This document shows, in pieces, positions 6,461-6,512 of a stretch of DNA of 6,805 nt. Source of the stretch: Escherichia coli. GTDB lineage: Bacteria; Pseudomonadota; Gammaproteobacteria; Enterobacterales; Enterobacteriaceae. The translations under genes were made by a program, and so were the position numbers. Each line of letters begins with the position of its first letter. Position 1 is the stretch's first letter. A model generated the notes under the pieces. The model saw nothing but the letters and a program-made list of their open reading frames with translations, was not told where the DNA came from and did no database searches. The stretch lies in assembly GCF_003334355.1 (NCBI RefSeq), contig NZ_QOWP01000065.1, one strand, 5' to 3'.

Positions 6461-6512
6461 CTGATTATTTATACTTTATTCGTTAGAATAGTCCGTAGAA
6501 ATAAATAATCAG
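6461..6512. repeat. 12-bp perfect inverted repeat CTGATTATTTAT / ATAAATAATCAG with 28-bp spacer
   Basis: Seen directly in the sequence; ends 13 bp upstream of the LysR-fragment start codon. Could be the ancestral LysR promoter/operator region or a large hairpin. Confidence 0.4.

What the first reader, a model, noticed from the sequence alone, without database searches (positions are those of the whole stretch)
6461..6512. 12-bp perfect inverted repeat with 28-bp spacer between the gltS-like gene and the LysR relic
CTGATTATTTAT ... ATAAATAATCAG lies just upstream of the LysR fragment start. It may be the surviving promoter/operator of the disrupted LysR gene or a large stem-loop acting on the gltS transcript. 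A second imperfect stem (6309-6318 / 6345-6354, one G-U pair) sits right after the gltS stop.
Basis: seen in the sequence. Interest (0 to 1): 0.3.

Follow-up and report, generated by a model that had tools for sequence, protein, structure and literature searches.

The report
Inverted repeat at Tn10 lysR promoter
The perfect 12-bp inverted repeat is real, but it is a leftover promoter region of a regulator gene that IS10 cut when transposon Tn10 was carved out of the Providencia stuartii chromosome, and it probably has no job in Tn10.

Summary
The window is the interior of Tn10. The repeat CTGATTATTTAT (6461-6472) / ATAAATAATCAG (6501-6512) is exactly as described and is beyond chance: 4 of 5000 shuffles of the 230-nt spacer contain one as good.

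Intact loci were found. Providencia stuartii chromosomes match window 159-6647 at 99.6-99.8% identity. There gltS is followed by an intact 301-aa LysR-type gene, a D-amino-acid dehydrogenase gene and ridA. All six P. stuartii loci carry the identical repeat, so it predates Tn10.

The dyad axis falls in the middle of TAGAAT (6484-6489), the only -10-like hexamer conserved in all 11 Providencia/Xenorhabdus lineages compared. The left arm covers the -35 position and the right arm about +5 to +16. It therefore straddles the lysR core promoter.

It is not the canonical LysR box. TAAC-N5-GTTA lies upstream of gltS and of dadA instead. The perfect repeat is absent from sister lineages whose DNA-binding domain is identical.

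It is not a terminator either. The first stem (6309-6354) is the gltS terminator and shows compensatory changes.

The function of the dyad is unproven: an operator-like element or a neutral quasi-palindrome. Interest is low.

More notable in passing: P. stuartii looks like the source of Tn10 and tet(B).

The parts
6461..6472 (.). Left arm CTGATTATTTAT. Its first six bases CTGATT sit 17 bp upstream of TAGAAT, which is the -35 position.
   Evidence: 11/12 conserved in P. vermicola P8538 and 10/12 in lineage L052. It overlaps the conserved block ATCnGATT.
6501..6512 (.). Right arm ATAAATAATCAG, at about +5 to +16 of the inferred lysR transcript.
   Evidence: Only 8/12 conserved in P8538 and about 8/12 in L052.
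6484..6489 (+). -10-like hexamer TAGAAT. The dyad axis (6486/6487) is its midpoint.
   Evidence: TA(G/A)(A/C)AT is present at this place in all 11 Providencia/Xenorhabdus lineages compared. Its role as a -10 element is inferred; no transcription start was mapped.
6477..6490 (.). Inner small palindrome TATTC-GTTA-GAATA, nested in the spacer.
   Evidence: Predicted inner stem in the RNA and DNA folds. Read directly from the sequence.
6448..6453 (+). Conserved TGAC block (ATGACG), 30 nt upstream of the hexamer. Also the first hexamer of a promoter-like match ATGACG-N16-TATACT (6448-6475).
   Evidence: TGA invariant and C nearly so in alignment A4. Promoter scan. The 30-nt spacing is kept in L052 despite a 22-nt insertion.
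6309..6354 (+). gltS (jemA) terminator-like hairpin, followed by CCGCTTTCTT.
   Evidence: -21.8 kcal/mol. Every orthologue has a hairpin at this position, most with a T-run. 3 compensatory double changes against P8538.
5090..6295 (+). jemA/gltS sodium/glutamate symporter gene.
   Evidence: PF03616. Identical protein in P. stuartii chromosomes.
6526..6651 (+). Truncated LysR-type regulator gene: 40 native codons, then His and a stop supplied by IS10.
6639..6647 (.). IS10 target TGCTGAGCA at the lysR/IS10-left junction. It fits the NGCTNAGCN hotspot (consensus recalled from memory).
   Evidence: The uninterrupted P. stuartii sequence reads ...CATGCTGAGCA|ACAATTAGGG.
6648..6805 (-). Inside end of IS10-left (CTGAGAGATCCCC...).
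4962..4978 (.). Canonical LysR-type box ATTAAC-TAAAA-GTTATG (T-N11-A) upstream of gltS. Listed because it shows where the regulator most likely binds.
   Evidence: Present upstream of gltS in the Providencia, Xenorhabdus and Ignatzschineria loci and one of two Neisseriaceae loci checked. A second copy lies inside the lysR 3' end upstream of dadA wherever that region is in the locus.

Best explanation
The repeat is native Providencia stuartii chromosomal DNA. It is a dyad-symmetric element straddling the core promoter of the LysR-type regulator gene that follows gltS and precedes a D-amino-acid dehydrogenase/RidA pair. IS10-left inserted 122 bp into that gene, so Tn10 carries the promoter, the dyad and 40 codons as a fossil.

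Shown: the origin of the sequence, its position, the conserved hexamer at the dyad centre, and its absence from the regulator's recognisable boxes.

Inferred: TAGAAT is the -10 element. The left arm overlaps the -35 position, and the right arm lies just after the transcription start. The two arms are then contacts for a DNA-binding protein that occludes or clamps the promoter, acting as a repressor-type operator. That binder is unidentified and is probably not the LysR protein through its canonical box.

In Tn10 the element at most drives a 41-codon stub and transcription into the inside end of IS10-left.
For: The window is Tn10. P. stuartii chromosomes are collinear with window 159-6647 at 99.57-99.82% identity. 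They carry an intact 301-aa lysR, and the repeat is identical in 6 of 6 loci. The dyad axis is the midpoint of TAGAAT, and TA(G/A)(A/C)AT is present in all 11 Providencia/Xenorhabdus lineages compared. CTGATT-N17-TAGAAT has promoter geometry, and the left arm overlaps a conserved block. The repeat is far beyond chance for its position. P. hangzhouensis and P. huaxiensis have a different perfect 11-bp repeat (GTATTAATTCG-N10-CGAATTAATAC) bracketing the same hexamer (shuffle P = 0.0003). X. mauleonii and P. alcalifaciens have weaker ones. Combined over lineages this is about 2e-5, computed by hand with Fisher's method from the P values. Majority-rule comparison of three lineages of the P. stuartii complex suggests the repeat is ancestral and unchanged in P. 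stuartii (my reading). gltS transcripts should end at their own terminator upstream.
Against: No transcription start or protein binding was measured. The -35 match is only 3/6, and the promoter scan preferred ATGACG-N16-TATACT. Half-sites 40 bp apart centre to centre suit no ordinary dimeric repressor. The right arm evolves about as fast as neutral spacer: 4 of 12 changes against P8538. Most orthologues show no significant dyad. The arms do not match the conserved TAAC-N5-GTTA box of this regulon. The repeats in different lineages share neither sequence nor spacing, which is odd for a single binding protein.
Confidence: 0.45

Rival explanations
1. Neutral quasi-palindrome. This is an AT-rich imperfect dyad in a promoter spacer that was made or kept perfect by template-switch (quasi-palindrome correction) mutation or by chance, and it has no function of its own.
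For: The perfect form is confined to P. stuartii. The sister lineages have 7/12 and about 8/12. The right arm is not conserved. In P. hangzhouensis the right arm lies in a lineage-specific stretch that looks like an inverted copy of the sequence upstream of the hexamer. Quasi-palindrome correction is an established mutational process (my own knowledge).
Against: Two unrelated perfect repeats are centred within 1 nt of the same conserved hexamer in separate lineages (P = 0.0007 and 0.0003). At the arm positions where ancestry can be inferred, P. stuartii has no derived change (low power).
Confidence: 0.3
2. RNA stem-loop. The two arms pair in a plus-strand transcript, either gltS read-through or a lysR leader starting upstream of 6461. 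The hairpin would affect the stability, processing or translation of lysR mRNA.
For: The predicted hairpin folds at -14.7 to -15.8 kcal/mol, z = -3.0 to -3.8. In P8538, three of the four right-arm changes are A to G, which would keep U-G pairs, giving 10/12 pairs if wobble is allowed. A promoter-like match GTGACA-N16-AATTAT (6422-6449) would start a transcript just before the left arm.
Against: RNAalifold finds no consensus pair in 11 orthologues. The minimum-energy fold of P8538 does not use this helix, and most orthologues have z near 0. The repeat has no U-tract and does not cover the Shine-Dalgarno region. From the conserved hexamer the left arm would not be transcribed. Every orthologue has a strong terminator upstream. 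Rfam finds nothing.
Confidence: 0.1
3. Symmetric (bidirectional) promoter. TAGAATA reads as TAnnnT on both strands, and each arm supplies the same CTGATT -35-like hexamer (17 bp away on the plus strand, 16 bp on the minus). The repeat would then simply reflect divergent transcription from one symmetric promoter.
For: The geometry is read directly from the sequence. In 9 of 11 lineages the hexamer is followed by A. Divergent transcription from symmetric -10 elements has been described as common in bacteria (recalled from memory, not checked here).
Against: The minus-strand hexamer TATTCT is a poor -10 element. Twelve perfect base pairs are far more than -35 elements need. The repeats in other lineages lie next to the hexamer, not at -35. 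Nothing is encoded on the minus strand.
Confidence: 0.08
4. A Tn10/IS10 functional site, such as a transposase, IHF or other host-factor site, or a terminator protecting IS10-left.
For: It lies 136 bp from the inside end of IS10-left.
Against: The identical sequence is present in P. stuartii chromosomes with no IS10 next to it. It has no T-run on either strand.
Confidence: 0.02

Closest known systems
LysR-type regulator (LTTR) operator at the regulator's own promoter (T-N11-A box; recognition and activation sites)
   Same: It lies at the promoter of an LTTR gene, is dyad-symmetric, and spans 52 bp, similar to an LTTR tetramer footprint (footprint size from general knowledge).
   Different: It has no T-N11-A dyad of the type this regulon uses (TAAC-N5-GTTA upstream of gltS and dadA). 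The half-sites are 40 bp apart. It is not conserved among orthologues with identical N-terminal 40 residues. The gene is in tandem with its neighbours, not divergent from its target.
Repressor operators that overlap a core promoter (paired half-sites flanking -35/-10/+1)
   Same: The arms overlap the -35 position and the early transcribed region, with the -10 element exactly at the axis.
   Different: No binding protein is known. The spacing is unusually wide. The sequence and spacing of the dyad differ between lineages.
Intrinsic (Rho-independent) terminator
   Same: It is an inverted repeat downstream of a gene.
   Different: The stem has only 2 G-C pairs of 12, the loop is 28 nt and there is no U-tract. 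The real terminator-like hairpin is 6309-6354.
Quasi-palindromes perfected by template switching
   Same: The perfect form is lineage-specific while relatives carry imperfect versions.
   Different: It recurs at the same conserved hexamer in unrelated form in another lineage, which a purely mutational origin does not predict.

Membership tests
LTTR operator (LysR box) | Interrupted dyad of about 15 bp with the T-N11-A motif | tested here: not met
   The arms are separated by 28 bp, and neither arm is itself a T-N11-A dyad.
LTTR operator (LysR box) | Match to the box found at the promoters this regulator should control | tested here: not met
   TAAC-N5-GTTA occurs upstream of gltS and, inside the lysR 3' end, upstream of dadA in the orthologous loci. 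In the window it occurs only at 4964, not in 6296-6525.
LTTR operator (LysR box) | Conserved where the DNA-binding domain is conserved | tested here: not met
   Residues 1-40 are 100% identical in Tn10, Providencia and Xenorhabdus. The repeat is perfect only in P. stuartii.
LTTR operator (LysR box) | Binding by the purified regulator | not testable with these tools
   Needs gel-shift or footprinting experiments.
Sigma-70 promoter | -10 hexamer close to TATAAT, conserved in orthologues | tested here: met
   TAGAAT (5/6). TA(G/A)(A/C)AT is present in all 11 lineages compared.
Sigma-70 promoter | -35 hexamer at 16-18 bp | tested here: inconclusive
   CTGATT at 17 bp matches 3/6. The consensus scan did not list it and listed ATGACG-N16-TATACT instead.
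Sigma-70 promoter | Mapped transcription start | not testable with these tools
   No 5'-end data were available.
Intrinsic terminator (the 12-bp repeat) | G+C-rich stem, short loop, U-tract | tested here: not met
   2 G-C pairs, a 28-nt loop, and TAGGCTACAT downstream. The terminator scan did not report it.
Intrinsic terminator (stem 6309-6354) | Stable hairpin right after the stop codon, kept by compensatory change | tested here: met
   -21.8 kcal/mol. Hairpins are present in all orthologues. 3 double compensatory changes against P8538.
Intrinsic terminator (stem 6309-6354) | U-tract directly after the stem | tested here: inconclusive
   The tail CCGCTTTCTT starts 3 nt after the stem, and the scan did not call it.
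IS10/Tn10 cis-acting site | Belongs to the IS10 element or depends on it | tested here: not met
   Identical in P. stuartii chromosomes where lysR is intact and no IS10 is adjacent.
Dispersed repeat (REP/MITE-like) | Many copies in a genome; target-site duplications | tested here: not met
   All 411 plasmid records that match are Tn10 copies at 99% identity or more. There is one copy per P. stuartii locus. The homologous sequence runs straight through it in relatives.
Known RNA family | Match to an Rfam covariance model | tested here: not met
   No hit at E <= 1 anywhere in the window.

The most novel reading that the evidence does not exclude
The same orthologous promoter has acquired different perfect inverted repeats in separate Providencia/Xenorhabdus lineages: 12-N28-12 in P. 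stuartii, 11-N10-11 in P. hangzhouensis and P. huaxiensis, and weaker ones elsewhere. All are centred on the same -10 hexamer. This could mean the structure matters rather than the sequence. One possibility is a supercoiling-dependent cruciform or hairpin that hides the -10 element and sets the level of the regulator. Another is a mutational process that repeatedly palindromises this promoter.
Probability: 0.12. Interest if true: 0.5.

Novelty: new member of a known kind. Interest (0 to 1): 0.25.

Why it matters
For Tn10 itself it matters little. The element is a fossil of a gene that the transposon destroyed. It may explain residual outward transcription towards IS10-left, and why jemA/gltS in Tn10 has lost its regulator.

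Its main value is as a marker. Together with the 40-codon stub and the hotspot junction, it ties the left boundary of Tn10 to a precise point in the P. stuartii chromosome.

If the dyad proved to be a real control element, it would be an entry point to the regulation of a conserved gltS / LysR / D-amino-acid dehydrogenase / RidA module in Providencia and its relatives.

Tried and rejected
- **Rfam:** a permissive scan of the whole window gave no hit.
- **Search with the 41-aa fragment:** it returned only Tn10 stubs.
- **Metagenome scans:** a degenerate pattern across the unbroken lysR junction and a pattern from the promoter both found nothing. No other sequence of intermediate divergence came from that source.
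- **Plasmid search at low stringency:** only Tn10 copies were found.
- **RNAalifold:** on the lysR promoter alignment and on the gltS leader alignment it predicted no consensus pairs.
- **Conserved dyad in all orthologues:** rejected. Only 2 of 11 lineages are clearly significant, and 2 or 3 more are marginal.
- **CRP-, Fur-, Lrp-, IHF- and H-NS-like readings** of the arms or of the TGAC block: compared by eye with consensus sequences recalled from memory. All gave half-matches at best, so none is claimed.
- **JemC (ArsR-type) as the binder:** considered. The presence of jem genes does not track the quality of the repeat across lineages, so it is not supported.
- **Literature:** Chalmers et al. 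2000 (PMC102010) could not be read. Papers that mention the Tn10 lysR fragment say nothing about the repeat.

Full report
**What the window is**

The ORFs and database matches identify the interior of transposon Tn10:
- tetD, 155-571, minus strand
- tetC, 584-1252
- tetA(B), 1365-2618, minus strand
- tetR, 2649-3275
- jemC (ArsR type), 3253-3939, minus strand
- jemB, 3947-4444, minus strand
- an ABM-domain gene, 4326-4646, minus strand
- jemA/gltS, 5090-6295
- a 41-codon LysR-type HTH stub, 6526-6651
- IS10 inside ends at 1-158 and 6648-6805

More than 400 plasmid records carry 6296-6647 at 99% identity or more, and nothing diverged from it is on plasmids.

**The observation**

The repeat is exactly as described: 12/12 complementary, 28-nt spacer, 6461-6472 and 6501-6512.

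| Test | Result |
|---|---|
| Perfect repeat of 12 bp or more, spacer up to 60, whole window | 27 of 500 shuffles |
| Same, 230-nt gltS-lysR spacer only | 4 of 5000 shuffles |
| RNA fold of 64-66 nt | -14.7 to -15.8 kcal/mol, z = -3.0 to -3.8 |
| DNA fold | -9.6 kcal/mol, z = -4.5 |

The second stem is real too: 11 bp, 6309-6319 / 6344-6354, with one G-T pair.

**Intact loci**

Close homologues of JemA led to Providencia and Xenorhabdus chromosomes. There gltS is followed, in the same direction, by an intact 301-302-aa LysR-type gene, a D-amino-acid dehydrogenase gene (NCBIfam PRK00711, above its cut-off) and ridA. The same module occurs in Neisseriaceae and Ignatzschineria genomes assembled from metagenomes. 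The first 40 residues of the regulator are identical in Tn10, Providencia and Xenorhabdus.

An exact-sequence look-up of JemA with short flanks then found chromosomes with the identical JemA and an intact lysR. They are 99.56-99.85% identical to window 2590-6647. Their proteins are named Providencia stuartii, and one exact match is from strain MRSN 2154.

With longer flanks, three P. stuartii chromosomes are collinear with the whole Tn10 interior, 159-6647, at 99.57-99.82%. The uninterrupted sequence reads ...CATGCTGAGCA|ACAATTAGGG. IS10-left therefore inserted right after TGCTGAGCA, which fits the IS10 hotspot NGCTNAGCN as I recall it. The repeat is identical in all six P. stuartii loci. It therefore predates Tn10 and belongs to the lysR upstream region of P. 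stuartii.

**Anatomy**

Alignment of 11 Providencia/Xenorhabdus upstream regions shows four conserved blocks:
- a TGAC block (6449-6452)
- ATCnGATT, which overlaps the first half of the left arm
- a hexamer TA(G/A)(A/C)AT (TAGAAT, 6484-6489)
- GTAGG(T/C)T next to the ribosome-binding region

The dyad axis (6486/6487) is the midpoint of the hexamer. CTGATT lies 17 bp upstream of it. By inference, a transcript would start near 6496, which puts the right arm at about +5 to +16.

The consensus scan itself preferred ATGACG-N16-TATACT (6448-6475). That -10 element is not conserved in the orthologues. Either way the arms flank or overlap the core promoter.

The region between the gltS terminator and the TGAC block is not alignable even with the closest other species.

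**Is it the regulator's own operator?**

Probably not in the canonical sense. A textbook LysR box, TAAC-N5-GTTA (T-N11-A), lies about 125 nt upstream of gltS in the Providencia, Xenorhabdus and Ignatzschineria loci and in one of the two Neisseriaceae loci checked. In the window it is at 4964-4976.

A second copy, GTTAACCAAAAGTTATA, lies inside the 3' end of lysR, about 100 nt upstream of dadA. It is followed by a further dyad, AATAATAAC-N6-GTTATTATT, in the lysR-dadA gap. These boxes mark gltS and dadA-ridA as the likely targets.

No such box lies in 6296-6525. Only one Neisseriaceae locus has a box just upstream of lysR.

**Conservation of the repeat**

| Lineage | State of the repeat |
|---|---|
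| P. stuartii / Tn10 | 12/12, spacer 28 |
| P. vermicola P8538 group (about 81-82% nt identity to Tn10 over 2.3-4.9 kb) | left arm 11/12, right arm 8/12; arms pair 7/12, or 10/12 with G-T allowed |
| L052/L054 (third lineage of the complex) | about 8/12, spacer 27 |

By majority rule over these three lineages, every arm position that can be resolved has the P. stuartii base. The repeat is thus probably ancestral to the complex and eroded in the two sister lineages. Power is low, and the right-arm alignment with L052 is uncertain (my reading).

Outside the complex most orthologues have no significant dyad. P. hangzhouensis and P. huaxiensis are an exception. They have a different perfect repeat, GTATTAATTCG-N10-CGAATTAATAC, whose axis is 1 nt from the midpoint of the same hexamer (P = 0.0003 against shuffled flanks; Tn10's repeat scores 0.0007). 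X. mauleonii has 8 bp (P = 0.04). P. alcalifaciens has 6-7 bp (P = 0.05-0.10).

In that scan every perfect repeat of 7 bp or more within 110 nt of the lysR start brackets or overlaps that hexamer, in each lineage that has one. Combining the per-lineage P values by Fisher's method gives about 2e-5. This was computed by hand, and the lineages are not fully independent. So there is a recurrent tendency to dyad symmetry about this hexamer, without shared sequence or spacing.

**RNA or DNA?**

RNAalifold finds no consensus pair. Six of the 11 individual folds place the hexamer in a hairpin loop, but only three have z below -2. The repeat has no U-tract and does not cover the ribosome-binding site.

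Every orthologue has a strong hairpin directly after the gltS stop, mostly followed by a T-run. The Tn10/P. stuartii hairpin (6309-6354) keeps 9 of 11 pairs in P8538, with three double compensatory changes. That hairpin, not the 12-bp repeat, is the gltS terminator.

A transcript starting at the conserved hexamer would not contain the left arm. The RNA reading therefore needs read-through or an upstream start.

**Verdict on mechanism**

The well-supported part is that this is the native promoter region of the P. stuartii lysR gene, fossilised in Tn10.

The role of the dyad is open. My estimates:
- 0.45: an operator-like element at the DNA level, with an unidentified binder
- 0.30: a neutral quasi-palindrome
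- 0.10: an RNA hairpin
- 0.08: a symmetric promoter
- 0.02: any IS10-related role

In Tn10 the regulator is destroyed. The element can at most drive a 41-codon stub and transcription into IS10-left, antisense to the transposase gene (orientation). That last effect is speculation.

**Novelty**

The lysR fragment of Tn10 is mentioned in the literature (PMC4861720). I found no description of the repeat. As a kind of thing, a promoter-associated dyad, it is ordinary.

**By-product: the origin of Tn10**

The whole Tn10 interior is P. stuartii chromosome. tetD is the first 138 codons of a 310-aa AraC/Rob-like gene.

One P. stuartii chromosome (CP027398.1) has a complete 1329-bp IS10 at exactly the IS10-right/tetD junction. 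It is flanked by a 9-bp duplication, TGCATTGCC, and lysR is still intact. This looks like a one-IS precursor of Tn10.

A 2021 survey states that no species origin was known for mobile tetracycline-resistance genes (PMC7782503). Four literature searches found no paper naming P. stuartii as the source. The library is incomplete, so I cannot claim priority.

Noticed in passing
window 159-6647; loci L048, L050, L051 (3634-10122), L044, L047: The entire Tn10 interior (tetD' to lysR') is collinear with Providencia stuartii chromosomes at 99.57-99.85% nt identity, with no IS10 at either end in most strains. P. stuartii therefore looks like the source of Tn10 and tet(B). A 2021 survey (PMC7782503) says no species origin was known for tetracycline-resistance genes. 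I found no paper stating this origin, but the library is incomplete.
   Followed up: partly
L049 2296-3642 (P. stuartii CP027398.1); window 158/159: One P. stuartii chromosome has a complete 1329-bp IS10 inserted at exactly the Tn10 IS10-right/tetD junction. It is flanked by a 9-bp target duplication, TGCATTGCC, and lysR is intact. This is an apparent one-IS precursor of Tn10.
   Followed up: partly
window 155-571 (minus strand); L050 3114-4046: Tn10 tetD (138 aa) is the N-terminal fragment of a 310-aa AraC/Rob-like gene with a GyrI-like domain in P. stuartii. It was cut by IS10-right just as lysR was cut by IS10-left. Both ends of Tn10 are truncated regulator genes.
   Followed up: partly
L035/L036 2289-8300; L052 2093-6906: Sister Providencia lineages carry chromosomal homologues of tetA (83% aa) and tetR (92% aa) next to gltS-lysR. 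They are about 81% identical in DNA to Tn10 over 4.9 kb. One lineage has the jem genes and the other lacks them. The tet(B)-type pump is therefore an old resident of this chromosomal neighbourhood.
   Followed up: partly
window 4962-4978 and 5000-5016; L050 about 10870 and 10925-10948: Canonical LysR boxes (TAAC-N5-GTTA) lie upstream of gltS and, embedded in the lysR 3' coding end, upstream of dadA. They are conserved from Providencia to Neisseriaceae and Ignatzschineria. Further dyads are GTTAA-N7-TTAAC upstream of gltS and AATAATAACT-N4-AGTTATTATT upstream of dadA. They imply that the truncated regulator controlled jemA/gltS, so in Tn10 jemA has lost its regulator.
   Followed up: partly
window 6639-6647: IS10-left sits next to TGCTGAGCA, a perfect match to the IS10 insertion hotspot NGCTNAGCN (consensus recalled from memory).
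   Followed up: yes
L029 and L031, about 7341-7372: P. hangzhouensis and P. huaxiensis have an unrelated perfect 11-bp inverted repeat, GTATTAATTCG-N10-CGAATTAATAC, bracketing the same conserved TAGAAT upstream of lysR. The palindromic hexamer ATTAAT occurs three times there.
   Followed up: partly
window 4814-4828 and 6463-6477; L009 860-874: GATTATTTATACTTT (left arm plus 5 nt) recurs, with one mismatch, in the divergent ABM-gltS spacer of Tn10. It recurs exactly in that spacer of P. vermicola P8538, as a conserved island in otherwise diverged sequence. It may be a shared cis-element. This is unexplained.
   Followed up: partly
window 5031-5040/5053-5062 and 4868-4877/4892-4901: Two more perfect 10-bp inverted repeats lie in the ABM-gltS spacer. 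The first (TTTTCACTAT-N12-ATAGTGAAAA) lies just before the gltS ribosome-binding site. It is kept in P8538 and partly (TCACT...AGTGA) in other species, but RNAalifold gives no consensus. The second is not kept in P8538 or in P. stuartii L050.
   Followed up: partly
window 6449-6452: An invariant TGAC block lies 30 nt upstream of the conserved hexamer. The spacing is preserved in lineage L052 by a second TGAC inside a 22-nt insertion. It might be an activator site near -42, but it gives only a half-match to a CRP site.
   Followed up: no
window 6347-6451: Some assemblies call a 34-codon ORF between gltS and lysR'. It starts inside the terminator stem. The region is not conserved in relatives, so the ORF is probably spurious.
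   Followed up: no
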